From Nostoc punctiforme PCC 73102 (GTDB taxonomy: Bacteria > Cyanobacteriota > Cyanobacteriia > Cyanobacteriales > Nostocaceae): a stretch of 32,000 nucleotides of DNA. The notes under the pieces were generated by a model. The model worked only from the letters and a program-made list of their open reading frames with translations. It did no database searches and was not told where the DNA came from. This document shows, piece after piece, positions 2,494-20,051 of the stretch (its first letter is position 1; the number at the start of each line of letters is the position of its first letter). Location of the stretch: positions 2,190,001 through 2,222,000 of the forward strand of contig NC_010628.1 of the NCBI RefSeq assembly GCF_000020025.1. The letters are read 5' to 3'. The translations under genes and the position numbers were made by a program.

Positions 2494-3032
2494 TTTATAA
2501 ATTTGCGATTGGTCTAGCGATCGCTTTTTTTCTAGGTTCATTTAATTTCCCACAGCTAGGGACATACCTATTAAGTTCACTTTATAATACTTATCCTGGC
2601 GGATTTCCAGGATTAGCACTTTTACTATTAAGAGTTAGTACTGGTGCGTTATTCATCCTACATGGCTATCCAAAAATTACGCATCTTCGACAGTGGGCTG
2701 AGTCTCTAAAGATGCCTGTCTTTCTTTGCTTCTTATCAGCTGCGTCTATGTTAGGCGGCGGAATTTTTCTAATTATTGGATTCCTGACACTCTTAGCCAC
2801 CTTGCCTATTTTATGCTCAATGATTTTTGCAATATACTTGCACATTTCTGGAAGTAAACCCTTTGTAGCCCAAGATCCATACTTAATTCCAGAAGACCAG
2901 TATCAAGGCCCTTTAGGACAAGGTGAACCGCCAAGTTGGGAAAAAGCGTTTATGTACTGCGTTATGCTAATTGCGATCGCGGCTTTAGGCCCTGGTGTAT
3001 ATTCGCTAGATGCTTTTATTTTTGGACGGTGA
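2490..3032 (+). CDS. DoxX-family integral membrane protein
   Basis: The 180-aa ORF has about 4 hydrophobic helices and a DoxX-like motif (LLLLRVSTGALFILHGYPK). Its ATG overlaps the upstream TGA (ATGA at 2490-2493), which implies translational coupling with the lactonase. Confidence 0.8.
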   Translation: MIYKFAIGLAIAFFLGSFNFPQLGTYLLSSLYNTYPGGFPGLALLLLRVSTGALFILHGYPKITHLRQWAESLKMPVFLCFLSAASMLGGGIFLIIGFLTLLATLPILCSMIFAIYLHISGSKPFVAQDPYLIPEDQYQGPLGQGEPPSWEKAFMYCVMLIAIAALGPGVYSLDAFIFGR

Positions 3033-6545: not shown

Positions 6546-7916
6546 CTACTTACTGTTTTTATCTTCATCTCCCAACATTTTCAGTAATTTTCTTGCAGCT
6601 AGAATACCTACAACTCCTACGCCGACTATTTCCGCTGCTTGCACCACTTTTTTCCCGACATCATGAGGGTCAAGGTGCTGATGAAAAACTTCTTCATCTA
6701 CCCATTCAGTGGTGGCTTTAAAGTCATGAATTGGTGCTGGTAATAGCGTTAAATAAGTGCCTTGACGGATTAAATGCGCGGTTTCGCCTACAACTTCAAA
6801 AACATTGAAAAGGTTAGCAGCAGCATCATTTATCCCCAATTTCAAAAGGGTTCCCCGGATGTTAACCTTAGCAGGTTTGGGTTCTTCTCCTAATGCTAAT
6901 GCTTTCAAATTCTGGGCAATATTGGCTCCTTGCTGATAAGCAACTTGAGCCGTAGGCGGTAGCGAATTATCCTGAACTGCTGCACAATCACCACCGACAA
7001 AGACTTCTGGAAAATCGAGTAATTGCAAGTTAGGAGTAACTAAAGGGCGATCGCGACGATCTCGATGTTCTTTAGGAATTGGCAAATCTTTAATCAGTGG
7101 ATGGGTAGAAGTGCCAGCAGTCCAAACTGTAGTATGTGTAGCTAATGTCTCAATTTGCTCGTTACGCTTATATTGAATTGAGGTGGAACCAATAGCAGTA
7201 GCTTCTGCTTCCACAATCATTTCTATTGGCACAGCACGTTTGTTCAATTCCCGTTCGGCAATTTCACGCAATGGGTTATTTATATCACCATCAAGGATTT
7301 CTTTACCATGATTGAGTAGTACTACACGAATTTCACTTGAATTTCCTCCCAAAGCGCTATACCAATGTGGGAGAAAATCAGCTAGAGTTGCTGCCATTTC
7401 CACACCACTTGCACCACCACCAACTATGACTACTGTTAATAGCTTTCGGCGTTGTTCTACATCTTCAGTTTGGACAGCTTTTTGCAAACAGTCACGTAAA
7501 TGACGGTCAAGAGCGATCGCATCTGCTTGCGTCCAGAAAGGAAAGGCATTTTCTCTAGCACCTTCAACTTGATGATAGCCAGTAACGCTGCCCAAAGCTA
7601 ATACTAAATTGCTGTAATTGTAGGAATTTCCCGAAGCTAATTTAACTTCCCGTTGATGCAAGTTTATCGATTGCACTGTATCTTGCACAAAGATGACACC
7701 ACTACCTTTAAGCAGTTCCGAAAAACGCGGCACTACCTGAAAGGTATCCATCTCACCATCGAAATATTCATATAATAGTGGCTTAAAGCAAAAGCGCTCG
7801 TCTTTATCAATCAAGATAACAGAGCGGGGATAATGTTCGTGAGCTAAATGTAAGGCTGTAAATAGCCCGGTAAAACCACCGCCGACAATCACAGTTTGAT
7901 AAACTGGGCTGTTCAT
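6546..7916 (-). CDS. Type-2 NADH dehydrogenase (NDH-2, FAD-dependent pyridine nucleotide-disulfide oxidoreductase family)
   Basis: The 456-aa ORF has two dinucleotide-binding GxGxxG motifs (VIVGGGFTGLFTA and VVIVGGGASGVEMA), VFVGGDCAAV, and a hydrophobic or amphipathic C-terminal tail (VGVGVVGILAARKLL). Confidence 0.85.
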   Translation of the reverse strand: MNSPVYQTVIVGGGFTGLFTALHLAHEHYPRSVILIDKDERFCFKPLLYEYFDGEMDTFQVVPRFSELLKGSGVIFVQDTVQSINLHQREVKLASGNSYNYSNLVLALGSVTGYHQVEGARENAFPFWTQADAIALDRHLRDCLQKAVQTEDVEQRRKLLTVVIVGGGASGVEMAATLADFLPHWYSALGGNSSEIRVVLLNHGKEILDGDINNPLREIAERELNKRAVPIEMIVEAEATAIGSTSIQYKRNEQIETLATHTTVWTAGTSTHPLIKDLPIPKEHRDRRDRPLVTPNLQLLDFPEVFVGGDCAAVQDNSLPPTAQVAYQQGANIAQNLKALALGEEPKPAKVNIRGTLLKLGINDAAANLFNVFEVVGETAHLIRQGTYLTLLPAPIHDFKATTEWVDEEVFHQHLDPHDVGKKVVQAAEIVGVGVVGILAARKLLKMLGDEDKNSK

Positions 7917-7969: not shown

Positions 7970-8215
7970 CTAGATGAATAAAAACAAAGCTATCAAAATA
8001 GCACTGAGGAACACAGCAAATGCAATAGCATATTCAACTCTCTGACTAAAAAATCCGACAGCAGCAATCAGAGCGATCGCTAGGCCAATAATGCCAGCAT
8101 ATTGCTCTTTTTGTAATCCGCGTGCAATTAGTGGATCTTGACCTGGTGCTGGAGTTTCTTGAATTGTTTTTGGGGCACGTTCTGAGGCTGGTATTTCTTG
8201 TAAGAATAGATTCAT
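7970..8215 (-). CDS. Small hypothetical membrane protein (81 aa, 2 TM helices) downstream of ctaE
   Basis: The internal ATG at 8215 (MNLFLQEIP...) avoids the 43-nt overlap that the 108-aa ORF-track version has with ctaE. It has a hydrophilic Pro/Gln-rich N-terminus followed by two hydrophobic helices (AGIIGLAIALIAAVGFF; AIAFAVFLSAILIALFLFI). I recognise no family. Confidence 0.45.
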   Translation of the reverse strand: MNLFLQEIPASERAPKTIQETPAPGQDPLIARGLQKEQYAGIIGLAIALIAAVGFFSQRVEYAIAFAVFLSAILIALFLFI

Positions 8216-8253
8216 CACATTACTCCTGAAAATATTTGGATATCTGAATGTTT

Positions 8254-8919
8254 TTATGCTCGCCAAAGGTAGAGAAGCGAGAAAAGAAAGACCCAAACTA
8301 CATCAACAAAGTGCCAAAATAGAGTAGTTGCACTTGTCCCGAAGTGAGTTTTATTATAGTTGCCTGGGATGAATGAACGAATCAGCATAATTATCTGAAG
8401 CACAACACCAGCCAGGACGTGTAGACCGTGGAAGCCTGTTAGTAAGTAAAATGTCGAACCAACTAACCCTGTAGTAATCTTGAAATCGAGATTTTTCCAC
8501 TCAATTAGCAGACCAACTAAGAAGTAACTCCCCATTGCGATCGTTATTAACCATAGCCAACGAAATTTCTTGAGTTGATTACGCTTGAGTGCATTTTCTG
8601 CTGGTTGAATGACAAAGCTACTAGAAAGTAATACTACCGTATTAATAACTACAATTGTAGACAATTCCGGTCCCGATATACCGGGTGGCAGCCAATTTTT
8701 AGTATTCAGTCGTAGAGCAACATAAGTAAAGATAAAACTCAAAAAAATGATGCTTTCTGACAGCAGGAACACGGTAAATCCGAACATTCCTTTACCATGA
8801 TGATCTTCATGACTACCGCCACCACTTGGTAAGAAGCGCTGTAACCAATTTGGCAAGCGTCGCCGCCACAAATCAAAACGGATAGGACTTTCATCTATAT
8901 GAATAGTGCGACGTTGCAT
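8254..8919 (-). CDS. ctaE: Heme-copper oxidase subunit III (ARTO-type cluster)
   Basis: The 221-aa ORF is a short 5-TM subunit III. Its motifs are FYLLTGFHGLHVLAGV and TLFWHFVDVVWVFLF. Confidence 0.9.
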   Translation of the reverse strand: MQRRTIHIDESPIRFDLWRRRLPNWLQRFLPSGGGSHEDHHGKGMFGFTVFLLSESIIFLSFIFTYVALRLNTKNWLPPGISGPELSTIVVINTVVLLSSSFVIQPAENALKRNQLKKFRWLWLITIAMGSYFLVGLLIEWKNLDFKITTGLVGSTFYLLTGFHGLHVLAGVVLQIIMLIRSFIPGNYNKTHFGTSATTLFWHFVDVVWVFLFSLLYLWRA

Positions 8920-9149: not shown

Positions 9150-10826
9150 TCACTCATTGTTATTAGAATCTTCGATTATTGAGTACTTTGGATTACCGTA
9201 GTCATAAGGAGGTCTTTTGACAATTGGAATCTCTTCAAAGTTATCTCGCGGAGGTGGTGAAGAGGTTGTCCATTCCAATCCACTAGCGTGCCAAGGATTG
9301 TCAACTGCTCTTGGCCCGTAAAGCCAAGAGCCTACTATGTTAGCAATAAAAGGCAGCGTGGATGCTCCTAGTAAGAATGATGCCAAGCTAGCGATAACGT
9401 TCCATCCTTGATACTGTGGATCGTAGGAAGAGACTCGGCGTAGCATCCCTTGTAAGCCTAGTGGGTGCATGGAGAAGAAGGTGATATTGGCAGGTATAAA
9501 GGTCAGCCAAAAATGCAATTTGCCCCAACCCTCAGCATACATTCTGCCAGTGATTTTGGGAAACCAGTAGTAAATTGCCGCGAAGATTGCCATTGTAATC
9601 GTGTTAAAAACGATGTAGTGGAAGTGTCCCACTACAAAGTAAGTATTATTAACGTGGATATCAAATGGCGTGGCAGCAAGCATTACACCAGTAACACCGC
9701 CAAAAATAAACATGGCTGCACCTCCCATTGCAAACAGCATTGGTGTCTCTAGATGTAGCTTGCTTCTCCAGATAGTGGCAGTCCAAGCGAAGGCTTTAAT
9801 ACCGGTAGGTATGGCAACTAACATTGAAGTAGCCATGAAGGTCATCCGCATCCAACCAGGGGTAGCACTGGTGAACATGTGATGTACCCAAACGAAGATG
9901 CTGATAAAAGCAATACCCAAGGTGGCGATCGCAACTGACCGATAACCAAATAGGGGATTGCGAGAAAATGCAGGCAAAACCTCAGCAAAAATACCAAAGG
10001 CTGGTAGTGCCATGATATAAACTGCTGGGTGAGAGTAGAACCAAAATAGATGTTGGTAAATGACGGGATCGCCATTCCCATCCGGTTTAAAGAATTGTGT
10101 GCCAACGGATAGGTCAAGCAACAACAGGATCAATGCACCCGTTAAGGCAGGTAAATTAATCAGTTGCAATAACTGGGCGCTGAGAACCGACCAAACAAAC
10201 ACAGGCATCCGAAAAAATGTCATCCCTGGGGCCCGCATCCAAAAGATGGTTGTCATAAAGTTGACAGCCCCCATGATGGAAGAGATGCCGATTAAAACTA
10301 GGCTGACTATCCAAATAAATTCACCGTTAATCAGTTCACCACCTGGAATTTGCAGACTAATTGGCGGATAAGACCACCAGCCAGATTGTGCAGTCCCGTT
10401 TGGCAAGAAGAAGCTAGACAGTAGTAAAAGACCAGCTGGCGGCAAAATCCAAAAGGAGATGGCGTTGAGCAAGGGAAAAGCCATATCCCGCGCTCCAATC
10501 ATCAATGGTACTAAGTAGTTAGAAAGCCCTGCATTGAAGGGAATAATCCACAGGAAAATCATGATTGTCCCGTGCATGGTGAACAAACCATTATAAAGCG
10601 GGCGATCAACCAGATTCGATTCTGGGGTGAGTAATTCAGCCCGAATCAGCATCGCCAACAGTCCGCCAATCAGGAAGAACATGAAGGTCATCACCATGTA
10701 CTGAATTCCAATCACCTTATGATCGGTGTTGAAACTGAAATATTGCTGCCAGGTATTACCCTGCTGGTTCTGATAATTTTCCGATTCTTGCTCCCCGGTA
10801 ATCTCTTGACTAAAATCATGTGTCAT
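9150..10826 (-). CDS. ctaD: Heme-copper oxidase subunit I, type A2
   Basis: All redox ligands are visible. They are the heme a His (FTMHGTIMIF), the CuB His plus cross-link Tyr (FYSHPAVY), CuB HH (VHHMF) and the heme a3/a His pair (GHFHYIVF). The K-channel Lys is in TGIKAFAW. I chose the start at ATG 10826 (MTHDFSQ...), which overlaps the ctaC stop by 11 nt. The 33-aa ORF-track extension would lie inside ctaC. Confidence 0.95.
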   Translation of the reverse strand: MTHDFSQEITGEQESENYQNQQGNTWQQYFSFNTDHKVIGIQYMVMTFMFFLIGGLLAMLIRAELLTPESNLVDRPLYNGLFTMHGTIMIFLWIIPFNAGLSNYLVPLMIGARDMAFPLLNAISFWILPPAGLLLLSSFFLPNGTAQSGWWSYPPISLQIPGGELINGEFIWIVSLVLIGISSIMGAVNFMTTIFWMRAPGMTFFRMPVFVWSVLSAQLLQLINLPALTGALILLLLDLSVGTQFFKPDGNGDPVIYQHLFWFYSHPAVYIMALPAFGIFAEVLPAFSRNPLFGYRSVAIATLGIAFISIFVWVHHMFTSATPGWMRMTFMATSMLVAIPTGIKAFAWTATIWRSKLHLETPMLFAMGGAAMFIFGGVTGVMLAATPFDIHVNNTYFVVGHFHYIVFNTITMAIFAAIYYWFPKITGRMYAEGWGKLHFWLTFIPANITFFSMHPLGLQGMLRRVSSYDPQYQGWNVIASLASFLLGASTLPFIANIVGSWLYGPRAVDNPWHASGLEWTTSSPPPRDNFEEIPIVKRPPYDYGNPKYSIIEDSNNNE

Positions 10827-11736
10827 TATTTTGCTTCCTTTTATTGGCAATGCCAGGTTGAGCAGGTGTGACGGTGTACCAGCCGCTATTAAACAATGTT
10901 TTTGGTGGTTGGATATTTTCGGCAACTGCCTGATTTACTGGAGTTGGTTCGCTATTAGCAGTTTGCGTGAGCCACTGGTTATATCGGTCGAGGGATTCAA
11001 CGTATACATCCGTTTCCATTAAGGCAAAGTAAGTACCGCTAAATTGAGAATCTTTCAGCCGATATTTGCCTGGGCGAGTAGGTGTTAGCACAATATCAAT
11101 GTCGCGCCCTGGAATAATATCCTGCTTTAAGCGAAACTCAGGGACATAGAAACCGTGAATTACATCCTGTGCTTGCAGATTTAAGCGAGTGCTACGATTG
11201 ATCGGCAGATGCAGTTGATTGCTAGTAACGTTATTTGGATAACGAAAAGACCAATCCCACTGCTTAACGAAAACATCAATAGTTTCAGATGCAGGTTTGG
11301 GGGCATCGCTGACGGTTTCGGCATAAGCGGGTGCAGATTCTAGGGGTGTGTGCAAATGCACGATTTGCTTTAAACCTAAAATATTTAACTGCTGATAAAT
11401 ATTGAAGCTTTGAAAAGCAATCCACACTACTAACAAAGTTGGGGTTGCTGTCCACAATATTTCTAGCCTCGCATCACCTCTAGAGGGGTGTCCCTCGGTG
11501 TAGTCTTCTGGAGGGGCGCGATGGAATGCGATCGCATAAACCATAACGCCAATTAGCCCAAGTAAGATAAATGCTCCAATTGAGACTAAGAAGCTAAATA
11601 AATCATCTACCCGTTGTGCTTCTGCTGTAGCTTGGGGAGGCATCCAAGAAAACGCCTGCTGGCCAATCCACCGACTGACGACGAGCAACACTGCTACATA
11701 AACCGCTATTAATACATATTCAAAAACACTAAACAT
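10816..11736 (-). CDS. ctaC: Heme-copper oxidase subunit II lacking the CuA centre (ARTO or quinol-oxidase-like)
   Basis: It has two N-terminal TM helices and a cupredoxin domain (DVIHGFYVPEFRLKQDIIPGR...PGKYRLKDSQFSGTYFALM). At the canonical CuA positions, both Cys and the second His are replaced. The start is ATG 11736 or TTG 11745. Confidence 0.9.
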   Translation of the reverse strand: MFSVFEYVLIAVYVAVLLVVSRWIGQQAFSWMPPQATAEAQRVDDLFSFLVSIGAFILLGLIGVMVYAIAFHRAPPEDYTEGHPSRGDARLEILWTATPTLLVVWIAFQSFNIYQQLNILGLKQIVHLHTPLESAPAYAETVSDAPKPASETIDVFVKQWDWSFRYPNNVTSNQLHLPINRSTRLNLQAQDVIHGFYVPEFRLKQDIIPGRDIDIVLTPTRPGKYRLKDSQFSGTYFALMETDVYVESLDRYNQWLTQTANSEPTPVNQAVAENIQPPKTLFNSGWYTVTPAQPGIANKRKQNNDT

Positions 11737-11760
11737 AAAATTCAATAAATTCTCGTTTAA

Positions 11761-12354
11761 TTATTTGTTGTAAACATTTTTAGAAATGGTATTAGCAGCA
11801 GTAACATGAATTCCAAATTCTTCTCCCAAATGCGCCCCCAATGTTCCGTGAACATACAATATGCCTAGCATCGCAATCCCTGCTAACAAGTAACTCCACT
11901 GCACCTGTCTGGAAGCATCCTTCCGCCAGTGGTAGCGTTGCAAACCTCTCCATACAGTCATGGCGACAATGATCCCCAACAGCAAAACCCCACCCAAACC
12001 ATGTAAAAGCATCGTCCAACCAGCACTCAATCCCCAAGCACTCTTTTGATCGACTGGTGGATTTGCCAAAAGTAGCTCAAAAAAACCAGCCGCAACCGTG
12101 AAAAATGTGATACCTGCTGCTGCTATCAGGTTGTACCAGCCGACATCAAAAAAGCTAGAACGGATGGCAGCCAATCCCAAAAATTTGAAAATAGGTTTTT
12201 CTAAAGAAAACAGCACTCCTGCTATATCAAAAAGAATGGCAATGATAAACAAGCCCAGCGTTAGATGCACCAACTGCGGATGTATAGGAATCTCATAAGG
12301 TAATCCGTTAGCACCCAGCCGCAATCTCAACTGCTCAATCAGTTGCGGGTTCAT
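11761..12354 (-). CDS. DUF2231-like 4-TM membrane protein, paralog B
   Basis: The 197-aa ORF has the N-terminal motif LPYEIPIHPQLVHLTLG, four hydrophobic helices, and further intramembrane His residues (LLHGLGG, YVHGTLGAHLG). Its ATG overlaps the upstream stop (ATGA at 12351-12354). Confidence 0.7.
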   Translation of the reverse strand: MNPQLIEQLRLRLGANGLPYEIPIHPQLVHLTLGLFIIAILFDIAGVLFSLEKPIFKFLGLAAIRSSFFDVGWYNLIAAAGITFFTVAAGFFELLLANPPVDQKSAWGLSAGWTMLLHGLGGVLLLGIIVAMTVWRGLQRYHWRKDASRQVQWSYLLAGIAMLGILYVHGTLGAHLGEEFGIHVTAANTISKNVYNK

Positions 12355-12845
12355 GGTGAAACTCCCTGTTTCATGGCTTGAACTACAGGCTCAACGTGCA
12401 ACCCATACACCCAAAACAGTTTACTCCCCAAATACACTTGCAAAAATACTAGGCAGACTAACAATGTTGCAGCCCCAAGGTAAGCAGGTGGTACTTTTCG
12501 GGGGCTGCGGTTGCGAATCACAAAACGCCAAGCTGCGATCGCCGCAACAATCGCTCCCAGTGACCAACCCAAGACGGTATGATAATTCAGCGTTGACTGG
12601 GCTGCTTTCTGGGCTTGTGCTAGTCCTGCTTCAAATTGACCAAAGATAATTGCGATGAAAATTGCGATCGCAGCAACAAACATATTCCAGAAACTCACCT
12701 CAAATAAACGCACGTTGCGGGTGAAATAGCCTAGAACATCACAGAAGAAAGAAAAAAACACCATTGCAATCACAAAGTGAACGATAATTGGGTGCAAAGG
12801 ATCGGGGTATGGTAGATTCTGGCTATTGAGAGGTAAGGCAGACAT
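12351..12845 (-). CDS. DUF2231-like 4-TM membrane protein, paralog A
   Basis: The 164-aa ORF has the N-terminal motif LPYPDPLHPIIVHFVIAM, which matches paralog B. It has four hydrophobic helices and His residues in LNYHTVLGW and YGLHVEP. It is the first gene of the minus-strand array. Confidence 0.7.
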   Translation of the reverse strand: MSALPLNSQNLPYPDPLHPIIVHFVIAMVFFSFFCDVLGYFTRNVRLFEVSFWNMFVAAIAIFIAIIFGQFEAGLAQAQKAAQSTLNYHTVLGWSLGAIVAAIAAWRFVIRNRSPRKVPPAYLGAATLLVCLVFLQVYLGSKLFWVYGLHVEPVVQAMKQGVSP

Positions 12846-13172
12846 CGCTTTTTCCTTGGGGTATCAGGTGCTGTGATTGCTTAGAGGTTTTGTAAAAATA
12901 CTATCCAGTATTGACTGCTTGAAGATTTTTAATTTTGCAGATGCTGACAAGATTTAGAATTCCTAACAATCAATATCTAAAAAATAGAGCAAAAAGCTAC
13001 TATCTTAGGGATGACTTATCGAAAAATAAATTATGATTTCTTGTTAGCTACATCTCTCCAATTTCCAATTTTATTAAGAAAGGCAGATGGTAAAAGAAAT
13101 TAATTAAATTTTATTATAAATAATCATATACACCTGAAAATATGCATCTCTACAAGATTAATAAATAATTTT

Positions 13173-13580: not shown

Positions 13581-14393
13581 ATGAGTTATTCCCCTTATCT
13601 CCTTAAAGGTCAAAAAGCACTTGTGACAGGTGCTAGTTCTGGGATTGGTGAAGCGATCGCTCGCTATTTGGCTGCATCAGGTGCAGCAGTAGCTATCAAT
13701 TACCATTCTGAAGCTGAATCAGCCCAAAAAATTGTTGATGATATCAAAGCTGCTAATGGAGAAGCATTCGCTATTCAAGCCGATGTCAGTAAAGAAGACC
13801 AAGTAAAGGCAATGTTCAGCCTAACCCTTAAACAATTTGGCACTATTGATATTTTAGTAAGTAATGCGGGCATTCAAAAAGACTCAGCATTTATAGATAT
13901 GACCCTCGATCAATGGAATGCAGTGATTGGGATAAATCTAACAGGACAATTCTTATGTGCTAGGGAAGCCGCAAAGGAATTCTTGCGTCGAGGTGTGAAG
14001 CCTGATATTTCATGTGCGGCAGGTAAGATTATTTGTATGAGTTCCGTACATGAGGTAATTCCTTGGGCTGGTCATGTGAATTATGCTACTAGCAAAGGTG
14101 GTATTAATATGATGATGCAAAGTATTGCCCAAGAACTTGCTCCTCACAAAATTCGGGTTAATAGTATTGCTCCTGGTGCAATCAAAACCCCAATTAACAA
14201 ATCAGCTTGGGATACCCCACAAGCAGAGGCAAATTTACTAAAACTAATTCCAGCGAAACGTGTGGGAAATGTAGAAGATATCGCCAAAGCAGCAGTTTGG
14301 TTGGCTTCTGATGACTCTGATTATGTCAACGGTACAACACTATTTGTAGATGGTGGCATGACTTTATATCCAGGGTTTACAGACAATGGTTAA
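13581..14393 (+). CDS. NAD(P)-dependent glucose 1-dehydrogenase (classical SDR)
   Basis: The 270-aa ORF has TGASSGIG, VSNAG, SSVHEVIPWAGHVNYATSKGG (catalytic S...YxxxK), PGAIKTPIN and a C-terminal LFVDGGMTLYPGF. From memory, this is colinear with Bacillus-type glucose 1-dehydrogenases. Confidence 0.8.
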   Translation: MSYSPYLLKGQKALVTGASSGIGEAIARYLAASGAAVAINYHSEAESAQKIVDDIKAANGEAFAIQADVSKEDQVKAMFSLTLKQFGTIDILVSNAGIQKDSAFIDMTLDQWNAVIGINLTGQFLCAREAAKEFLRRGVKPDISCAAGKIICMSSVHEVIPWAGHVNYATSKGGINMMMQSIAQELAPHKIRVNSIAPGAIKTPINKSAWDTPQAEANLLKLIPAKRVGNVEDIAKAAVWLASDDSDYVNGTTLFVDGGMTLYPGFTDNG

Positions 14394-14396
14394 GAT

Positions 14397-14411
14397 AATT
14401 CGTAATTCGTA
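14397..14411. repeat. Tandem heptamer AATTCGT x2, also present at 8956-8970 and 8920-8930
   Basis: AATTCGTAATTCGTA lies 3 nt after the SDR stop codon. CGTAATTCGTAATTA and AATTCGTAAT lie just upstream of the ctaE start. Confidence 0.75.
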
Positions 14412-14504
14412 TTTAAGTTTTGTAATTGGGATTTAAAAAGAGCCAGAAAATTTGCGGCTTGTTGGAAGCGAGGGAATTAAAACCACAGAATTGGTTAATT
14501 GAAA

Positions 14505-16625
14505 ATGCCTACAAAAGTTACTGTCAATTCGGGTTTGATAACCATTAACGATGGTTCATCTTTTTTAGTAACGGCTAGTGATGGTTCTATTGACGAAAAT
14601 TTACCTCAAGGTTTTTTTGTTTGGGACACACGGCTAATTTCTTACTACGAAATTTCTCTCAATCGCTGCCGACTTTCGCTATTAACCTCTAGCAATATCA
14701 CTCATCATAATGCGCTTTACCAATTTACTAATCTGCAACTTCCTACTATCAACGACTCTTTACCTCCTGGTAGTTTGCTTGTAACGGTTCGGCGCGACAT
14801 TGCAGAAGGTATGCATGAAGATATTGATATAACTAACTATCACAGTAAAGCTGTTGAGTTTCAATTAATGCTAGCTGTACGCTCTGATTTTGCAGATATT
14901 TTTGATGTCAAATCACAGCAAATATTGACGCGAGGTGAGACACAAACTAAATGGGAAAATGGTGTACTCACCACTGAATATCGCAACGGCTCTTTCTTCC
15001 GAGGTATTGTGATTGAGCCAGTTTGTGATAATTCTGAGCCACGCTATGCCAATGGTCGTTTAATGTTTGATGTGGTCATTGCTCCTGGGAAAACATGGCA
15101 CACTTGTGTTAATTTTATAGCCTTAGCCGATGGAAATATCTTCAAACCTCAAAGCACCTGCGCTGTGCCTCACAATACGAAAGCTGGGAAGGTTAGGGAT
15201 GAATTCCTGATGAATGCGACAAAGTTGCAATCGTCTAATGCTGAAATTGCCGAATACTATCAGCAAGCGATCGCGGATATGGGAGCGTTGCGGATTGAGG
15301 TGGATGATAATGGACATCAATTTTGGATGCCTGCTGCTGGTATTCCCTGGTTTGTTGCTGTTTTTGGACGTGACTCAATAATTGCTAGCTTGCAAGCGAT
15401 CGCAGTTTATCATGAATTTTCCCGTGGCACGTTACTGAAACTAGCTCAACTCCAGGCCACTGAGTTGGATGATTGGCACGATGCCCAACCGGGCAAAATG
15501 CTGCACGAAATGCGCCGCGATGAGTTAACTACATTAAACTTACTTCCATATCATCCCTACTACGGAACAGTAGATACTACCATCCTTTGGATTGTTACTT
15601 TAGCTGAAGCCTATAACTGGAACGCCGATGTTAGTATGCTTGATGAGTGTCGAGCGCCACTGGAAAAGGCACTAAGTTGGATTGACAAATACGGCGACTT
15701 TGACGGCGATGGCTTTGTTGAGTATTTAACTCATTCGTCAAAAGGATTACGCAATCAAGGTTGGAAAGATTCGGGTGATGCAATAGTTTACCCCGATGGG
15801 CAGTTAGTTGAGCCGCCAATCGCTTTGTGTGAAGTGCAAGGCTACGTTTATGATGCGTGGCTGAGGGCAGCTTTAATTTATGAAGTGTGGGGCGAAAAAG
15901 AGCAAGCTAAAAAGCTGCGTCAAAAAGCCGAAGAACTTTATCAGCGATTTAACGATCGCTTTTGGATGGATTCAGTTGGCTTTTACTGTTTAGGATTAGA
16001 CGATAAAAAGCAGCAAATTCAATCAATTGCCTCAAATCCTGGTCATCTCCTCTGGTCTGGTATTGTCCCACAAGAGCGAGCCAAAAAACTTGTTAACCGA
16101 CTTTTTCAACCAGATATGTGGTGTGGTTGGGGTGTGCGGACTCTTTCATCTGAAAATCAGGCATATAACCCAATTAGTTATCAACGAGGTAGTGTATGGC
16201 CTCACGACAACTCCATAATTGCGGCCGGATTAAAGCGATATGGCTATCATCAAGAAGCTAACCGCATTGCTGAGGGTATCTTTGCTGCTGCTAGTTATTT
16301 TCAAGCTGGACGAATGCCAGAATTGTTTGCGGGAATTGAACGTCAAGATGATAACTTTCCAGTCCCCTACCCAGATGCTAATATACCCCAAGCTTGGGCT
16401 GCTGGTTCAATTTTCTTACTCATTCGTACCATTTTAGGACTCAAAGCTGATGCTTCCAAACAACAGTTAAAAGTACAGCCGAATCTACCAGATTTCTTAC
16501 CCGATTTAGAACTCACAAATTTGTCTGTAGGAGACGCTACGGTGGGATTGCGCTTTTGGCGCGATGGCGAACAAACCCAATGGAAAGTTACCCATCTTGA
16601 TGGTGAATTAGAAGTTTCTACATAA
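14505..16625 (+). CDS. Amylo-alpha-1,6-glucosidase / glycogen-debranching-enzyme-like protein (GDE_N_bis + GDE_C (alpha/alpha)6 barrel)
   Basis: The ORF is about 706 aa. Motifs are AAGIPWFVAVFGRDS, NQGWKDSGDA, CEVQGYVYDA, YQRGSVWPHDN and PQAWAAGS. The ATG is at 14505, two codons after the TTG used by the ORF track. Confidence 0.85.
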   Translation: MPTKVTVNSGLITINDGSSFLVTASDGSIDENLPQGFFVWDTRLISYYEISLNRCRLSLLTSSNITHHNALYQFTNLQLPTINDSLPPGSLLVTVRRDIAEGMHEDIDITNYHSKAVEFQLMLAVRSDFADIFDVKSQQILTRGETQTKWENGVLTTEYRNGSFFRGIVIEPVCDNSEPRYANGRLMFDVVIAPGKTWHTCVNFIALADGNIFKPQSTCAVPHNTKAGKVRDEFLMNATKLQSSNAEIAEYYQQAIADMGALRIEVDDNGHQFWMPAAGIPWFVAVFGRDSIIASLQAIAVYHEFSRGTLLKLAQLQATELDDWHDAQPGKMLHEMRRDELTTLNLLPYHPYYGTVDTTILWIVTLAEAYNWNADVSMLDECRAPLEKALSWIDKYGDFDGDGFVEYLTHSSKGLRNQGWKDSGDAIVYPDGQLVEPPIALCEVQGYVYDAWLRAALIYEVWGEKEQAKKLRQKAEELYQRFNDRFWMDSVGFYCLGLDDKKQQIQSIASNPGHLLWSGIVPQERAKKLVNRLFQPDMWCGWGVRTLSSENQAYNPISYQRGSVWPHDNSIIAAGLKRYGYHQEANRIAEGIFAAASYFQAGRMPELFAGIERQDDNFPVPYPDANIPQAWAAGSIFLLIRTILGLKADASKQQLKVQPNLPDFLPDLELTNLSVGDATVGLRFWRDGEQTQWKVTHLDGELEVST

Positions 16626-16640
16626 TTATTATTTACTCTT

Positions 16641-17579
16641 ATGGCAAATAATTCATCTAATAAAACTATATATGCGGCGATGGGCGCTAACTTAGCGATC
16701 GCAATTACTAAATTTATTGCCGCCTCCATTACTGGCAGTTCCGCTATGATTTCTGAGGGGATTCATTCAGTTGTAGATACAGGCGACCAACTTGTACTTT
16801 TGCTAGGACTGCACAGAAGTCAAAAACCAGCAGATGATAGTCATCCCTTTGGATACGGTCAAGAACTTTATTTCTGGACTTTTATCGTTGCTATCCTGAT
16901 CTTTGCAATTGGTGGCGGGATGTCAATTTATGAAGGAATTACTCATTTAATTAACCCTAGCCCTTTAGAAGATCCAATATGGAATTATATTGTATTGAGT
17001 ATAGCAATAATATTAGAAGGTTTTTCTTGGACTGTAGCTTTAAAAGAATTTTTGCCGACTAAGGGTAAGCAAAATTTTTGGCAAGCAATCAAAAACAGTA
17101 AAGACCCAACAGTATTTACAGTATTATTTGAGGATACTGCCGCAATTCTAGGCTTAGTTGTGGCCTTAATCGGAATTTTCTTAGGAGATTTATTTAATAA
17201 TATTTATTTTGATGGTATCGCCTCTATTATTATTGGTATTATCTTGTCTATAGTAGCAGTACTACTAGCTAGAGAAAGTAAAGGATTATTAGTTGGTGAA
17301 AGTGCTAATCCTCAAACTATAGCTAATATCCGTTCTTTATCAAAAACAGAACCAGGGGTACAAGAAGTTATTCGGGTGCTAACAATGCAACTTGCTCCAC
17401 AGGAAGTATTACTCAACTTGGAAATCCAGTTTTCTAAAAATCTCACAGGCGAGGAAATAGCATTAACTGTAGAACGTTTAGAAATAAAAATTCGCCAGAA
17501 ACATCCTGAAATAAAACAAATTTTTATTGAAGCAAAGTCTTTAGCTGCTACTCGCAAATATTCTCAACCTTTCAATTGA
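16641..17579 (+). CDS. Cation diffusion facilitator (CDF) family divalent-metal efflux transporter
   Basis: The 312-aa ORF has 6 TM helices. Motifs are SAMISEGIHSVVDTGDQ (HxxxD metal site), HPFGYGQE and EDTAAILG, followed by a C-terminal cytoplasmic domain. It starts 15 bp after the GDE stop. Confidence 0.9.
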   Translation: MANNSSNKTIYAAMGANLAIAITKFIAASITGSSAMISEGIHSVVDTGDQLVLLLGLHRSQKPADDSHPFGYGQELYFWTFIVAILIFAIGGGMSIYEGITHLINPSPLEDPIWNYIVLSIAIILEGFSWTVALKEFLPTKGKQNFWQAIKNSKDPTVFTVLFEDTAAILGLVVALIGIFLGDLFNNIYFDGIASIIIGIILSIVAVLLARESKGLLVGESANPQTIANIRSLSKTEPGVQEVIRVLTMQLAPQEVLLNLEIQFSKNLTGEEIALTVERLEIKIRQKHPEIKQIFIEAKSLAATRKYSQPFN

Positions 17580-17654
17580 AGGACAATTTTGTTTCGATAA
17601 ATATCAACTACAGCATTTCCAAATAGCACTCAAAGCTTATCGGCACAATAAATT

Positions 17655-20051
17655 ATGGTAAAGATTATTGGTCAAGAACAGGCTTTTGGCTCACCCGGCA
17701 TCGATCCTCGATGGACTCATGCCAATAAGGATGCAGTCGGAACAGCTTATTTTACCTCTAGTCGCGTTTGGTTTACTGTTTGCAACGGTGTTGTGACAGA
17801 AGTCTACCACCCCACAGTAGACAAACCCCAAATTCGAGATTTGCAATATCTAATTTCTGATGGCAAAAGCTTTTTCCATGAGGAGAAACGGCATCTCGAA
17901 TCAAAAGTTGAACAGATGTGGACTCATGGTTTAGGATATCGCGTCACTAATTCCGATCCACAAGGGCGTTATGCTGCGATCAAAGAAGTGATTGCTGACC
18001 CCCATTTATCCTGTATTTTACAACATACAAAGTTAATAGGAGAGCGCGAGTTTATCTCGCAACTCCAGCTATACGCTTTGTGTGCGCCACATTTGGAAGT
18101 TGGCGGCAGAGGTAACAATGGTTACGTCATAGAAGTTGCTGGACATCAGATTCTAACGGCCGAGAAAGCAGGAAGATGGATGGTGCTAGGTGCAACGGTT
18201 CCCTTCAGCCGTCTTTCCTGTGGTTACGTCGGTCAAAGTGATGGGTGGACAGATTTAGCTGATAATTTCCAGATGGATTGGGAGTTTGACCGTGCTTTGG
18301 ATGGCAACATTGCTTTGACTGGACAACTAAATCTAGATGAGAGTCACGAGTTCACTTTGGGACTGGCATTTGGTACAACTCTGCACAATGCAATTTCCAC
18401 ACTGTTTCAGTCGCTAAATATTCCTTTTCAACAGCAGAAGCAACATTATATCGAACAGTGGAAGCGATCGCGCCAGGGCATCAAGCCATTAGAAAATATT
18501 TCATTCGATGATGGTAACTTGTATCACCACAGCATTAGTCTGCTTTTGGCCCATGAAGACAAAACTTATCCAGGTGCTTTAATTGCTTCCCTAGCAATTC
18601 CTTGGGGTGAAGCCAAAGACGACCAAGACCAAGGGGGATATCACCTTGTCTGGACGCGGGATATGGTTAGCAGTGTATCAGGTTTATTGGCTGCTGGGGA
18701 GACAGAAACAGCAGTGCGATCGCTCATTTATCTGGCCACGAGTCAGCAGGAAGACGGCGGTTTTGCCCAAAATTTCTGGGTTAATGGGGAACCTTACTGG
18801 AAGGGTATTCAACTAGATGAAGTGGGATTTCCTATTCTACTAGCATGGCTACTGCACCAACAAAAAATACCACTGAACTTTGATATTTATCCCATGATTT
18901 TACGGGCAGCAGGTTATTTAATTCGTCACGGCCCGGCTACCCAACAAGAACGCTGGGAAGAAAATAGCGGCTATTCACCTTCTACACTGGCATCTAATAT
19001 TGCCGCTTTAATCTGTGCTGCTCAATTTGTTCGTGAACGTGGGGATGAAGTAACAGCAAAATTTATCGAAGAATACGCCGATTTTTTAGAATGTCACGTT
19101 GAAGTTTGGACAGTTACTACCGAAGGTACTCTTGTACCTGGCATCAATCGGCATTACATCCGCATTACTCCTACAGATATTAATAATCCTCAACCCAACG
19201 AAAATCCTAATCAGGGAACTCTTTTGATCAGCAGTCAACCTCCTGGTGAACCAGCAGAATTTCCTGCGAAAGAAATTGTGGATGCAGGCTTTTTGCAACT
19301 AGTACGCTATGGAATTCGTAAACCTGACGATCCGATTATTGTTGATTCCGTCAAAGTAATTGATGCAGTCTTGAAAGTAAATACACCTGTTGGGCCTTGT
19401 TGGCATCGTTACAACCACGACGGCTATGGACAACAAGAAGACGGTAGTCCTTACACTGGTTGGGGTAAAGGACGCGCTTGGCCTCTCTTGACAGGAGAGA
19501 GGGGACATTATGAATTAGCTGTTGGTGGCGATGTCAAAACATATATCAAGGCAATGGAAGGATTTGCTTCAGACACTTGTTTGCTACCAGAACAGGTTTG
19601 GGATGAAGCAGATAGACCTGAAAGCCACATGTATTTAGGAAGACCAACAGGTTCCGCCATGCCTTTAATGTGGGCGCACGCAGAGTATATCAAGCTGCTA
19701 CGCTCAAATCATGACAATCAGGTATTTGATTTTATCCCAGAGGTGGCGAATCGCTATTTAGGCGAAAGACAAGAGTGCAAATTATTGGAAATGTGGAAGT
19801 TTAACCGTCAAATAGACAAAGTTAAAAAAGGTTATACATTGCGAATTCACGCTTTAGCTTCTTTTCGGTTGCATTGGTCGCAGGATGATTGGCAAACCGT
19901 AAAAGATACGCCTTCTACTTCCACAAAATTAGGAGTGGACTTTGTAGATATCTCTGTTTCAAATAACCAACAACAACCAATAAACTTTACCTTTTTCTGG
20001 ATTGAAAGTAGCAAATGGGAACAGCGAAATTATACAGTTTTAGTTGAGTAA
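17655..20051 (+). CDS. GH15 glucoamylase-family glycoside hydrolase (glucan 1,4-alpha-glucosidase, glucodextranase or trehalase type)
   Basis: The 798-aa ORF has an N-terminal beta-sandwich domain, then a catalytic (alpha/alpha)6 region. The catalytic motifs are GGYHLVWTRD, QQERWEENSGYSPSTLA (WEE general-acid motif) and LLPEQVWDE. A beta-rich extension of about 105 aa follows at the C-terminus. Confidence 0.9.
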   Translation: MVKIIGQEQAFGSPGIDPRWTHANKDAVGTAYFTSSRVWFTVCNGVVTEVYHPTVDKPQIRDLQYLISDGKSFFHEEKRHLESKVEQMWTHGLGYRVTNSDPQGRYAAIKEVIADPHLSCILQHTKLIGEREFISQLQLYALCAPHLEVGGRGNNGYVIEVAGHQILTAEKAGRWMVLGATVPFSRLSCGYVGQSDGWTDLADNFQMDWEFDRALDGNIALTGQLNLDESHEFTLGLAFGTTLHNAISTLFQSLNIPFQQQKQHYIEQWKRSRQGIKPLENISFDDGNLYHHSISLLLAHEDKTYPGALIASLAIPWGEAKDDQDQGGYHLVWTRDMVSSVSGLLAAGETETAVRSLIYLATSQQEDGGFAQNFWVNGEPYWKGIQLDEVGFPILLAWLLHQQKIPLNFDIYPMILRAAGYLIRHGPATQQERWEENSGYSPSTLASNIAALICAAQFVRERGDEVTAKFIEEYADFLECHVEVWTVTTEGTLVPGINRHYIRITPTDINNPQPNENPNQGTLLISSQPPGEPAEFPAKEIVDAGFLQLVRYGIRKPDDPIIVDSVKVIDAVLKVNTPVGPCWHRYNHDGYGQQEDGSPYTGWGKGRAWPLLTGERGHYELAVGGDVKTYIKAMEGFASDTCLLPEQVWDEADRPESHMYLGRPTGSAMPLMWAHAEYIKLLRSNHDNQVFDFIPEVANRYLGERQECKLLEMWKFNRQIDKVKKGYTLRIHALASFRLHWSQDDWQTVKDTPSTSTKLGVDFVDISVSNNQQQPINFTFFWIESSKWEQRNYTVLVE

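What the first reader, a model, noticed from the sequence alone, without database searches (positions are those of the whole stretch)
11761..12845. Two translationally coupled His-rich DUF2231-like 4-TM paralogs head the CuA-less oxidase operon and may be an uncharacterised electron-entry or assembly module
Seen in sequence: two adjacent ORFs of 164 and 197 aa are clear paralogs. They share N-terminal motifs (LPYPDPLHPIIVHFVIAM versus LPYEIPIHPQLVHLTLGL). Each has four hydrophobic helices and extra membrane-embedded His residues (NYH and GLH in one; LLHG and YVHGTLGAH in the other). Their coding regions overlap by ATGA (12351-12354). The second ends only about 25 nt before ctaC, so they are almost certainly co-translated with the oxidase.

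Established knowledge: DUF2231 has no assigned function, and the oxidase they precede lacks the CuA electron-entry site (see the ctaC finding). From memory, the heterocyst-induced cox3 locus of Anabaena PCC 7120 also begins with two hypothetical ORFs.

Inference: a heterodimeric 8-TM module with paired intramembrane His residues is what a bis-His heme-b or Cu-binding quinol-oxidising or electron-relay subunit would look like. It could substitute for the lost CuA route. Alternatively it could be a dedicated metal-insertion factor.
Basis: partly seen in the sequence, partly recalled or inferred. Interest (0 to 1): 0.75.

Follow-up and report, generated by a model that had tools for sequence, protein, structure and literature searches.

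The report
Paired DUF2231 membrane proteins heading oxidase operon
Two small, related, histidine-bearing membrane proteins of unknown function head the operon of a cyanobacterial respiratory oxidase that has no recognisable electron-entry site; their wider family points to copper handling, probably copper loading of the enzyme, rather than to a new electron-entry subunit, though that is not excluded.

Summary
On the minus strand, A (12351-12845, 164 aa) and B (11761-12354, 197 aa) overlap by ATGA. Both are confident DUF2231 proteins and distant paralogs with four TM helices each. They head a ctaC-ctaD-ctaE operon, followed by a small ORF and an NDH-2 gene. These are Nostoc orthologs of Anabaena PCC 7120 alr2729-alr2730 in the published cox3/Qox operon, so the architecture is known; the function is not.

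New here:
- All conserved His (4 in A, 5 in B) lie on the predicted outer (P) side of the membrane.
- Every adjacent ctaC (73/73) lacks CuA, and CtaD also lacks all four E. coli bo3 quinol-site residues.
- Linkage is frequent but not obligatory: 10 of 78 informative Nostocales loci and Gloeothece keep an intact, purifying-selected A-B pair without the oxidase, and CuA-less oxidase operons occur without A-B.
- Distant family members sit by multicopper oxidases, cupredoxins, a Cu-ATPase and other copper genes. They carry His/Met-rich tails or heavy-metal-binding domains.

Best reading (confidence about 0.4): a P-side copper-handling heteromer that helps mature the oxidase's CuB site. The electron-entry idea remains possible (about 0.2). 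Heme binding is unsupported. No solved structure resembles the models.

The parts
12351..12845 (-). DUF2231 protein A (164 aa). Four TM helices, predicted N-out/C-out. Invariant P-side His at H18, H23 (motif HPxxVH at the start of TM1), H89 (start of the hydrophobic part of TM3) and H150 (G-L-H-V after TM4).
   Evidence: ORF. Pfam PF09990 E = 1.1e-40. Topology. AF2 model pLDDT 91.7. His conservation.
11761..12354 (-). DUF2231 protein B (197 aa), a distant paralog of A. Four TM helices. Conserved P-side His at H25, H30, H118, H169 and H183 (H169 is Q in 1 of 121 close orthologs). H142, in the cytoplasmic loop, and H175 are variable.
   Evidence: ORF. Pfam E = 1.4e-35. BLASTP against A E = 5e-13. 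AF2 model pLDDT 89.0. His conservation.
12351..12354 (-). ATGA overlap of the A stop codon and the B start codon (translational coupling). The overlap or immediate adjacency is conserved in related loci.
   Evidence: junction sequence. (A end coincides with B start in most of the 80 loci).
10816..11745 (-). ctaC / coxB3-type subunit II lacking CuA. Both Cys and the second His of the CuA motif are replaced (D, S, F).
   Evidence: Pfam COX2 and COX2_TM. CuA-ligand columns in 73 sequences.
9150..10925 (-). ctaD / coxA3-type subunit I. Heme and CuB ligands are intact, but none of the E. coli CyoB quinol-site residues R71, D75, H98, Q101 is present. It carries a YSHPAV motif, which from memory is the A2-type signature. 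The true start is probably the internal Met about 34 codons in.
   Evidence: Pfam COX1 E = 5e-160. Alignment with CyoB.
8254..8919 (-). ctaE / coxC3-type subunit III.
   Evidence: Pfam COX3 E = 1.4e-32.
7970..8296 (-). Conserved small ORF after ctaE. It probably starts at an internal Met, giving about 82 aa with two C-terminal TM helices. No known family; not similar to CyoD.
   Evidence: Conserved by tblastn in nearly all related loci. Sequence. No Pfam or NCBIfam hit. No similarity to CyoD.
6546..7916 (-). Type II NADH dehydrogenase (NDH-2), co-conserved with the A-B/oxidase cluster.
   Evidence: Pfam Pyr_redox_2. Best PDB matches are the B. subtilis YjlD, Caldalkalibacillus and S. aureus NDH-2 enzymes. 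Synteny.
13113..13140 (-). Promoter-like -35/-10 pair (TTTTCA, 16 nt, TATAAT) about 270 nt upstream of A. This is a consensus match only.
   Evidence: No perfect NtcA box (GTAN8TAC) lies upstream of A.

Best explanation
A and B are two diverged copies of a four-helix membrane protein (DUF2231) that most likely act together as a heteromer. Each presents a cluster of invariant histidines at the outer (periplasmic or lumenal) membrane surface, forming a metal-binding site, most likely for copper. I propose that the pair captures or relays copper on the P side and helps load the single copper site (CuB) of the co-encoded CuA-less ARTO/Qox oxidase. That would make it a maturation or copper-supply factor rather than part of the electron path.

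Shown: family membership, topology logic, His conservation, synteny, persistence without the oxidase, and the copper signatures of the wider family.

Inferred: heteromer formation, copper as the ligand, and CuB of the oxidase as the client.
For: 1. Distant DUF2231 genes lie in copper or periplasmic-cuproprotein loci in 6 of 8 contexts with readable neighbours:
   - multicopper oxidase-CopB-Cupredoxin_1-DUF2231-YHS;
   - Cu P-type ATPase-Cupredoxin_1...DUF2231-HMBD;
   - multicopper oxidase translationally coupled to DUF2231;
   - DUF326 and HMA;
   - metal-sensitive regulator-DUF305-cytochrome c-DUF2231;
   - cytochrome c3-DUF2231-multicopper oxidase.
2. Domain fusions to the heavy-metal-binding domain HMBD.
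3. In 37 of 101 diverse members the P-side C-terminal tail is 35 residues or longer and is His-rich (8.6% against 3.8% in the core), with HHHH, HxH and MMxM runs. Some members have a signal peptide followed directly by HEHGGHG.
4. Three His are conserved across the family (98/99, 92/100, 95/99). All conserved His of A and B lie at the P-side interface, while the only N-side His varies.
5. The pair stays intact under purifying selection after loss of the neighbouring oxidase: omega is about 0.04-0.08 for A and 0.07-0.27 for B. That suits a trans-acting factor better than an obligate subunit.
6. The oxidase-less Gloeothece pair sits two genes from a 'four-helix bundle copper-binding protein'. 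The T. variabilis plasmid copy lies next to a CopY-family regulator.
7. Cox11-type CuB chaperones are reported only in Proteobacteria and eukaryotes. The alternative factor, Caa3_CtaG, is likewise a polytopic membrane protein with conserved His and Asp, so a precedent and a gap both exist (PMC9145763).
Against: - No direct evidence of copper binding, of A-B interaction or of contact with CtaD.
- Model coordinates are not exposed, so the geometry of the His cluster could not be measured.
- E. coli bo3 needs no known CuB factor, and CuA-less ctaCDE operons exist without an adjacent A-B, so the pair may not be required.
- The cyanobacterial A and B lack the His-rich tails seen in distant members.
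- Many neighbours of distant members (cupredoxin, cytochrome c, Rieske, ferric-reductase-like protein) are redox proteins, which suits an electron-transfer role equally well.
- 24 of 71 family members give weak hits to the cytochrome b561 family.
- The sample of distant contexts is small (8) and partly chosen non-randomly: P0295 was picked for its fusion, and the Croceicoccus and Legionella records were found through similarity to chosen queries.
Confidence: 0.4

Rival explanations
1. A and B are true extra subunits of the ARTO/Qox complex and provide its missing electron entry. Either they form a P-side His-lined plastoquinol-binding site, or they hold a redox cofactor (one heme b or a copper) that passes electrons to heme b of CtaD.
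For: - The oxidase lacks CuA in all 73 adjacent ctaC genes. It also lacks all four CyoB quinol-site residues, while every heme and CuB ligand is kept.
- Tight translational coupling with ctaC.
- The cluster also encodes NDH-2, so it would be a self-contained NADH-to-O2 chain.
- A review states it is unclear whether cyanobacterial Qox has more than three subunits.
- Recurrent sub-threshold similarity to His-ligated heme-b bundles: Ni_hydr_CYTB in 24/71 members, COX15-CtaA in 8/71 and Cyt_bd_oxida_I in 5/71.
- Neighbours of distant members are often periplasmic redox proteins.
Against: - Intact A-B pairs persist under purifying selection without ctaCDE.
- CuA-less ctaCDE operons occur without an adjacent A-B.
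- In one cyanobacterial locus A-B is transcribed divergently from ctaCDE, together with NDH-2.
- All heme-family matches are below threshold, and hhalign against CybB and FdnI gives probabilities of 0.8% and 4.6%.
- The conserved His lie on one membrane side only, at the interface.
- The family's His/Met-rich tails and HMBD fusions are hallmarks of metal binding, not of quinol oxidation.
Confidence: 0.22
2. A and B are copper-homeostasis or protection proteins that act independently of the oxidase, for example P-side copper sequestration, uptake or reduction. On this view they are co-located and co-regulated with a respiratory and sugar-oxidation island rather than serving the oxidase itself.
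For: - Copper contexts and metal-binding tails in the wider family.
- Oxidase-less A-B pairs stay embedded among the same SDR, VOC and GH15 neighbours.
- The GH15 and SDR neighbours recur even beside the single DUF2231 gene of Croceicoccus.
Against: - In 67 of 78 informative Nostocales loci, and in Fischerella, T. variabilis and two non-Nostocales loci, the pair directly precedes or neighbours a CuA-less oxidase, usually with translational coupling.
- Whenever an oxidase is adjacent, it is always the CuA-less type. That specificity is hard to explain by co-location alone.
Confidence: 0.15
3. A and B work with the co-encoded NDH-2, for example as a membrane docking partner or as part of an NADH-driven cupric reductase, rather than with the oxidase.
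For: - NDH-2 is co-conserved with the pair.
- In L092 the transcription unit is A-B-NDH-2-small ORF, divergent from ctaCDE.
- In L059 and L067, A-B, the small ORF and NDH-2 remain after ctaCDE loss.
- In Fischerella the order is NDH-2-A-B-cox.
Against: - Five oxidase-less loci (L020, L021, L025, L027, L029), and Gloeothece, keep A-B without NDH-2.
- NDH-2 acts at the cytoplasmic face, whereas the conserved His of A and B are on the P side.
- Gloeothece places NDH-2 with ctaCDE, away from A-B.
- Cupric-reductase activity of NDH-2 is recalled from memory only.
Confidence: 0.08

Closest known systems
alr2729 and alr2730 of the Anabaena sp. PCC 7120 cox3/Qox (type-1 ARTO) operon
   Same: Same operon architecture: two hypothetical membrane ORFs, then coxB3-coxA3-coxC3 (PMC6616624). 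The same family is named in Nostocales relatives. In Anabaena the operon is heterocyst-specific and NtcA binds upstream of alr2729 (PMC3898017). The window proteins are almost certainly orthologs.
   Different: No function has been published for them in the searchable literature. I did not retrieve the Anabaena sequences themselves, so orthology is inferred from named Nostocales relatives and from the literature description. No perfect NtcA box lies upstream of A in this window.
Caa3_CtaG (Bacillus-type CtaG) and the CopD-like/CtaG fusion protein CtiP of Corynebacterium
   Same: Polytopic membrane proteins with conserved His (and Asp) thought to ligate a metal. They are encoded with heme-copper oxidase genes and are tentatively assigned to CuB assembly or copper supply (PMC9145763). 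This is the closest functional analogy to my best explanation.
   Different: No detectable sequence relationship. Neither family is among the recurrent weak Pfam hits, and hhalign against E. coli YebZ (CopD family) gives 0.4% probability. DUF2231 has 4 TM helices and here occurs as a paralogous pair; Caa3_CtaG has 7 TM helices.
copABCD-type copper-resistance operons (CopC/CopD)
   Same: In one distant locus the order multicopper oxidase-CopB-Cupredoxin_1-DUF2231 parallels CopA-CopB-CopC-CopD position by position. That places DUF2231 in the slot of the inner-membrane His-bearing CopD.
   Different: This is a positional analogy only. There is no sequence similarity and no evidence of transport.
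Prokaryotic cytochrome b561 family (Pfam Ni_hydr_CYTB: CybB, FdnI, HyaC)
   Same: Four-helix membrane bundle with His on transmembrane helices. 24 of 71 DUF2231 members give weak hits (best E = 1.3e-5). The TM3 'H...G...WR' stretch aligns locally with a His-containing TM2 stretch of CybB.
   Different: All scores are below Pfam's threshold. The hhalign probabilities are 0.8-4.6%. DUF2231 has conserved His on one side of the membrane only, and its predicted topology is opposite (N-out). Foldseek finds no significant match to any solved structure (best E = 0.22 and 0.62).
Archaeal SoxABCD quinol oxidase, which has an extra cytochrome-b-like subunit SoxC (recalled from memory, not tested)
   Same: It is a precedent for a heme-copper oxidase whose subunit II lacks CuA and which takes electrons through an additional membrane subunit.
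   Different: SoxC is a di-heme cytochrome b homolog. DUF2231 shows no significant similarity to cytochrome b families, and its conserved His are confined to one membrane face.

Membership tests
Pfam DUF2231 (PF09990) | Score above the curated gathering threshold across the whole domain | tested here: met
   A scores 139.4 bits (profile positions 2-138 of 139) and B 122.8 bits, against a cut-off of 26.4.
Pfam DUF2231 (PF09990) | Family-wide conserved residues: HPxxVH at the start of TM1, a His at the start of TM3, G in TM2, WR at the end of TM3 and GG in TM4 | tested here: met
   All are present in A and B. Conservation across 99 diverse representatives: 98/99, 92/100, 95/99, 99/101, 87/97 and 82/96, 95/98.
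Cyanobacterial cox3/Qox (type-1 ARTO) operon as in Anabaena PCC 7120 | Gene order: two hypothetical ORFs, then subunits II, I and III | tested here: met
   A-B-ctaC-ctaD-ctaE on the minus strand. The same order is found in 67 of 78 informative related loci. The literature gives the operon as alr2729-alr2730-coxB3-coxA3-coxC3.
Cyanobacterial cox3/Qox (type-1 ARTO) operon as in Anabaena PCC 7120 | Subunit II lacks the CuA ligands | tested here: met
   D and S at both Cys positions and F at the second His position in 73/73 sequences.
Cyanobacterial cox3/Qox (type-1 ARTO) operon as in Anabaena PCC 7120 | Heterocyst-specific, NtcA-dependent expression | not testable with these tools
   There are no expression data for this strain. 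No perfect GTAN8TAC box lies upstream of A, but the Anabaena site listed in PMC3898017 is itself imperfect.
bo3-type quinol oxidase (E. coli CyoABCD-like), for the adjacent oxidase | High-affinity quinol-site residues R71, D75, H98, Q101 in subunit I | tested here: not met
   They are replaced by I/V, L/F, L/G/V and G/A in the window CtaD and in three other DUF2231-linked CtaDs, while all heme and CuB ligands align.
Prokaryotic cytochrome b561 / Ni_hydr_CYTB (PF01292) | Significant profile match | tested here: not met
   A scores 16.6 bits against a cut-off of 30.1. The best hit among 71 members is E = 1.3e-5, still sub-threshold. hhalign against CybB gives 0.8% and against FdnI 4.6%.
Prokaryotic cytochrome b561 / Ni_hydr_CYTB (PF01292) | Two bis-His heme sites, with ligand His near both membrane faces (feature recalled from memory) | tested here: not met
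   All conserved His of A and B are at the P-side interface. The only N-side His (B-H142) is variable.
CopD (PF05425) / Caa3_CtaG (PF09678) copper and oxidase-assembly membrane proteins | Sequence or profile similarity | tested here: not met
   hhalign against E. coli YebZ gives 0.4%. Neither family appears among the 25 most frequent weak Pfam hits of 71 members. No Caa3_CtaG sequence was available for a direct comparison.
CopD (PF05425) / Caa3_CtaG (PF09678) copper and oxidase-assembly membrane proteins | Metal (copper) binding and a requirement for oxidase CuB assembly | not testable with these tools
   This needs biochemistry and genetics. Only contextual support is available.

The most novel reading that the evidence does not exclude
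A and B are the missing electron-entry subunits of the cyanobacterial ARTO/Qox. On this reading a DUF2231 heterodimer docks on CtaD and supplies in trans the plastoquinol-oxidising site, or a P-side redox cofactor, that this oxidase lacks. The oxidase has neither CuA nor the bo3-type quinol site. Together with the co-encoded NDH-2, the cluster would then be a self-contained NADH-to-O2 chain for oxygen scavenging in heterocysts.
Probability: 0.2. Interest if true: 0.8.

Novelty: new variant of a known kind. Interest (0 to 1): 0.5.

Why it matters
Heterocyst oxidases protect nitrogenase from oxygen, and the Qox/ARTO enzyme is one of two required for diazotrophic growth of Anabaena. How ARTO receives electrons, and whether it has more than three subunits, is acknowledged as unclear. 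I show that this enzyme lacks both known entry sites.

Cox11-type CuB chaperones are reported only in Proteobacteria and eukaryotes, and further assembly factors are expected but unidentified.

DUF2231 is a widespread family with essentially no literature. Tying it to copper and periplasmic cuproproteins gives it a first testable functional hypothesis. It also nominates alr2729/alr2730, in a genetically tractable model organism, as the genes to knock out.

Tried and rejected
- **Solved-structure homology.** phmmer and a profile hmmsearch against PDB sequences found nothing. Foldseek of both confident models against the PDB gave no match with E below 0.2, only generic membrane four-helix bundles.
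- **His geometry.** The tools do not expose model coordinates, so His-His distances could not be measured.
- **Heterodimer modelling.** AlphaFold-Multimer of A+B was not possible with the single-chain tool and its input restrictions.
- **Profile comparisons.** Comparisons with E. coli CybB, FdnI and YebZ were all insignificant. I therefore reject membership in the cytochrome b561 and CopD families.
- **Third homolog search.** A search with a diverse profile again returned mostly cyanobacterial orthologs.
- **Genome scan.** It returned only close relatives, nearly all Nostocales, so whole-genome presence or absence of A-B against ARTO across cyanobacteria could not be computed.
- **Short contigs.** Several context look-ups landed on contigs too short to be informative.
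- **NtcA box.** None was found upstream of A.
- **Small ORF.** The ORF after ctaE is not CyoD-like.
- **CuA regex.** A regular-expression scan for the CuA region missed 22 sequences. I replaced it with an alignment-based count.
Full report
**1. Observation**

The two ORFs are real and lie on the minus strand: A at 12351-12845 (164 aa) and B at 11761-12354 (197 aa). The stop of A and the start of B overlap as ATGA. B ends 15 nt before the first possible ctaC start (TTG) and 24 nt before its first ATG.

Both proteins match Pfam DUF2231 over the whole domain, at 139.4 and 122.8 bits against a threshold of 26.4. NCBIfam has no model for them. They are distant paralogs: 25% identity, E = 5e-13.

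Hydropathy gives four helices in each. AlphaFold2 models built on diverse alignments are confident: pLDDT 91.7 and pTM 0.86 for A, pLDDT 89.0 and pTM 0.84 for B.

Downstream on the same strand lie:
- ctaC (COX2);
- ctaD (COX1);
- ctaE (COX3);
- a conserved small ORF;
- a Pyr_redox_2 flavoprotein whose best solved relatives are type II NADH dehydrogenases.

A promoter-like site lies about 270 nt upstream of A. No terminator-like site falls in an intergenic region between A and ctaE on the coding strand; the only one on that strand lies inside ctaD.

**2. What is already known**

The window comes from a Nostoc-like cyanobacterium. In Anabaena PCC 7120 the heterocyst-specific quinol-type oxidase (Cox3/Qox, a type-1 ARTO) is encoded by alr2729-alr2730-coxB3-coxA3-coxC3 (PMC6616624). 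NtcA binds upstream of alr2729 (PMC3898017), and alr2729/alr2730 are listed as 'hypothetical protein' in a SigC study (PMC4390870).

Neither gene has an assigned function. DUF2231 is mentioned in only one searchable paper, and a search under PF09990, COG4244 and IPR019251 found one more paper (it holds PF09990); both mentions are incidental.

**3. Histidines and topology**

The two basic loops (TM1-2 and TM3-4) carry most of the positive charge, so the N-terminus, the TM2-3 loop and the C-terminus are predicted to face the P side. Distant homologs that have a cleavable signal peptide in front of the domain agree with an N-out orientation.

| Comparison set | Result |
|---|---|
| 120 close orthologs of A | H18, H23, H89, H150 invariant |
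| 120 close orthologs of B | H25, H30, H118, H183 invariant; H169 in 120/121 |
| Orthologs down to 64% identity, including oxidase-less pairs | the same His all invariant |
| B-H142 (the only cytoplasmic-side His) and B-H175 | variable |
| 99 diverse family representatives | three His near-universal: HPxxVH in TM1 (98/99 and 92/100) and the TM3 His (A-H89 = B-H118, 95/99) |
| G(L/I)HV His and B-H169 | specific to the oxidase-linked cyanobacterial subfamily |

All conserved His sit at the P-side interface. This does not fit a two-heme transmembrane cytochrome. It is compatible with one P-side metal, heme or quinol site per protomer.

**4. Linkage to the oxidase**

Among 80 related genomic loci, nearly all Nostocales:
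- 67 have the full A-B-ctaC-ctaD-ctaE block, usually followed by the small ORF and NDH-2;
- 10 have an intact, still overlapping or directly adjacent A-B pair but no ctaC or ctaD;
- 1 has A only;
- 2 end at a contig edge.

Five of the oxidase-less loci share one deletion architecture (SDR-A-B-VOC). Within that group dN/dS is about 0.04-0.08 for A (one pair reaches 0.39 at very low dS) and 0.07-0.27 for B. Controls that retain the oxidase give 0.02-0.14 for A and 0.05-0.09 for B. The pair therefore remains under purifying selection without a neighbouring oxidase. The number of substitutions is small, and B looks somewhat relaxed.

Some genomes hold two complete copies of the operon (L013 + L033, L007 + L071).

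Arrangements seen in other loci:

| Locus | Arrangement |
|---|---|
| Non-Nostocales L094 | A-B-ctaCDE-NDH-2-small ORF |
| Non-Nostocales L092 | A-B-NDH-2-small ORF, divergent from ctaCDE |
| Fischerella plasmid | heme O synthase-NDH-2-A-B-coxII-ctaDII-ctaEII |
| T. variabilis plasmid A | CopY-family regulator...A-B-cox-GMC oxidoreductase-cytochrome bd |
| Gloeothece PCC 7822 | A-B pair among GH15, SDR and VOC genes, two genes from a 'four-helix bundle copper-binding protein' |
| Gloeothece PCC 7822, 240 kb away on the same replicon | CuA-less coxII-I-III-NDH-2-like operon |

Seven metagenomic loci carry ARTO-like ctaC genes with no A-B in the sequence available upstream, which reaches about 5 kb in three of them. 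The CuA-less motif was read directly in four of the seven.

Whenever an oxidase is adjacent to A-B it is CuA-less (73/73). Cis-linkage is therefore strong and type-specific, but not obligatory in either direction.

**5. The oxidase has no recognisable entry site**

The canonical CuA motif, recalled from memory as QCSELCGxxHxxM, reads KDSQFSGTYFALM in ctaC.

Aligning CtaD with E. coli CyoB shows every heme and CuB ligand conserved. None of the quinol-site residues R71, D75, H98, Q101 is conserved, either here or in three other DUF2231-linked CtaDs. The D-channel Glu is replaced within a YSHPAV motif.

A review notes that it is unclear whether cyanobacterial Qox has more than three subunits.

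**6. The wider family points to copper**

A phmmer scan of 1.84 billion representatives found 519 clusters at E of 0.001 or better.

Of the eight distant members whose neighbours could be read, six lie beside copper or periplasmic-cuproprotein genes:
- multicopper oxidase-CopB-Cupredoxin_1-DUF2231-YHS;
- Cu P-type ATPase-Cupredoxin_1...DUF2231-HMBD, with YHS and Rieske genes nearby;
- a multicopper oxidase translationally coupled to DUF2231;
- DUF326 plus HMA;
- metal-sensitive regulator-DUF305-DUF6692-cytochrome c-DUF2231 in Croceicoccus;
- FAD oxidoreductase-iron reductase-cytochrome c3-DUF2231-multicopper oxidase in Legionella.

Two contexts were uninformative.

Some members are fused to the heavy-metal-binding domain HMBD. 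In 37 of 101 diverse members the P-side C-terminal tail is at least 35 residues long and is His-rich (8.6% against 3.8% in the core), with HHHH, HxH and MMxM runs. Three tails contain CPMH...C..CGM motifs, and some N-termini read signal peptide-HEHGGHG.

These are signatures of periplasmic metal binding. The sample is small and partly non-random, which I weigh in the confidence.

**7. Heme?**

Twenty-four of 71 members give sub-threshold hits to Ni_hydr_CYTB, 8 to COX15-CtaA and 5 to Cyt_bd_oxida_I. The best Foldseek hits are respiratory four-helix bundles, but none is significant.

Profile comparisons with CybB, FdnI and the CopD-family protein YebZ give probabilities of 0.8%, 4.6% and 0.4%. 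The only local match pairs the TM3 'H...G...WR' stretch with a His-containing stretch of CybB TM2.

I treat heme binding as unsupported but not excluded. Membership in either family is rejected.

**8. Synthesis**

The best-supported reading is that A and B form a P-side, His-lined, copper-handling membrane module that serves maturation or copper supply of the CuB site of the co-encoded ARTO. In function it would resemble the polytopic, His/Asp-bearing Caa3_CtaG and CopD-like factors. Cox11 is reported only in Proteobacteria and eukaryotes, and additional factors are expected (PMC9145763).

This reading explains the copper signatures of the family, the one-sided His cluster, the tight but dispensable linkage, and the persistence of the pair without the oxidase. 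It does not explain why only the CuA-less oxidase has the pair.

The electron-entry reading explains that specificity and the missing entry sites. It fits poorly with the oxidase-less pairs and the metal-binding tails.

My weights are about 0.40 for copper handling or assembly, 0.22 for an electron-entry subunit, 0.15 for oxidase-independent copper homeostasis, 0.08 for an NDH-2 partner, and the rest unknown.

**9. Novelty and interest**

The gene pair and its place in the operon are known, and the window is another instance of that operon. What is not in the literature I could search:
- the copper link of DUF2231;
- the one-sided His topology;
- the survival of oxidase-less pairs under purifying selection;
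- the absence of the bo3 quinol site in the linked CtaD.

I rate the finding a new variant of a known kind: an oxidase accessory, copper-handling membrane factor from an uncharacterised family. Interest is moderate (0.5). It makes an acknowledged open question testable in a tractable organism, but nothing here is yet surprising to a specialist.

Noticed in passing
window 9150-10925 (-), ctaD: CtaD keeps all heme and CuB ligands but has none of the four E. coli CyoB quinol-site residues (R71, D75, H98, Q101). It carries YSHPAV in place of the D-channel Glu motif. Together with the CuA-less ctaC, the enzyme has no recognisable electron-entry site.
   Followed up: partly
window 7970-8296 (-): A small ORF overlaps the end of ctaE and is conserved (57-95% identity) in nearly all related loci. 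It probably starts at an internal Met, giving about 82 aa with two C-terminal TM helices. It matches no known family and is not CyoD-like. It could be an unrecognised small oxidase subunit.
   Followed up: partly
window 6546-7916 (-): A type II NADH dehydrogenase is co-conserved with the A-B/oxidase cluster across Nostocales, Fischerella, Gloeothece and two non-Nostocales loci. This suggests a compact NADH-to-O2 respiratory module.
   Followed up: partly
window 1564-3032 (+), 5513-6520 (-), 13581-20051 (+); also L096, L098, L099: Sugar-oxidation genes flank the cluster: SMP-30/gluconolactonase, DoxX, a VOC/glyoxalase, an SDR, a glycogen-debranching-like enzyme and a GH15 glucodextranase. Subsets of the same genes recur next to DUF2231 genes in 'Nostoc azollae', Gloeothece and the alphaproteobacterium Croceicoccus. 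This may be a conserved, possibly mobile, glucose-oxidation and respiration island.
   Followed up: no
L013 + L033 (Nostoc 210A); L007 + L071 (Nostoc P3068); L097, L099, L114 (plasmids): Some Nostoc genomes carry two complete copies of the A-B-ctaCDE-NDH-2 cluster. Further copies lie on large plasmids of T. variabilis and Fischerella. In 'Nostoc azollae' pAzo01 the gene table lists no B and no subunit III.
   Followed up: partly
L045, L059, L067: The oxidase deletion is caught in progress. L045 and L059 retain a ctaE fragment after an intact A-B pair, and L059 and L067 retain the small ORF and NDH-2.
   Followed up: partly
window 10816-10925 (-): The listed ctaD ORF overlaps ctaC by about 110 nt, but only because the ORF list takes an upstream TTG as the start. 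With the internal Met (MTHDFSQE...), ctaD would overlap the ctaC stop by a few bases, which suggests coupling here too.
   Followed up: no
window 16641-17579 (+): A cation-diffusion-facilitator metal-efflux gene (Cation_efflux + ZT_dimer) sits between the glycogen-debranching-like and GH15 genes, about 4 kb from A.
   Followed up: no
L118 (Legionella fallonii plasmid II): The operon-like run FAD oxidoreductase-'iron reductase'-cytochrome c3-DUF2231-1122-aa multicopper oxidase looks like a transmembrane electron path feeding a periplasmic copper enzyme. It would be a good second system for testing what DUF2231 does.
   Followed up: no
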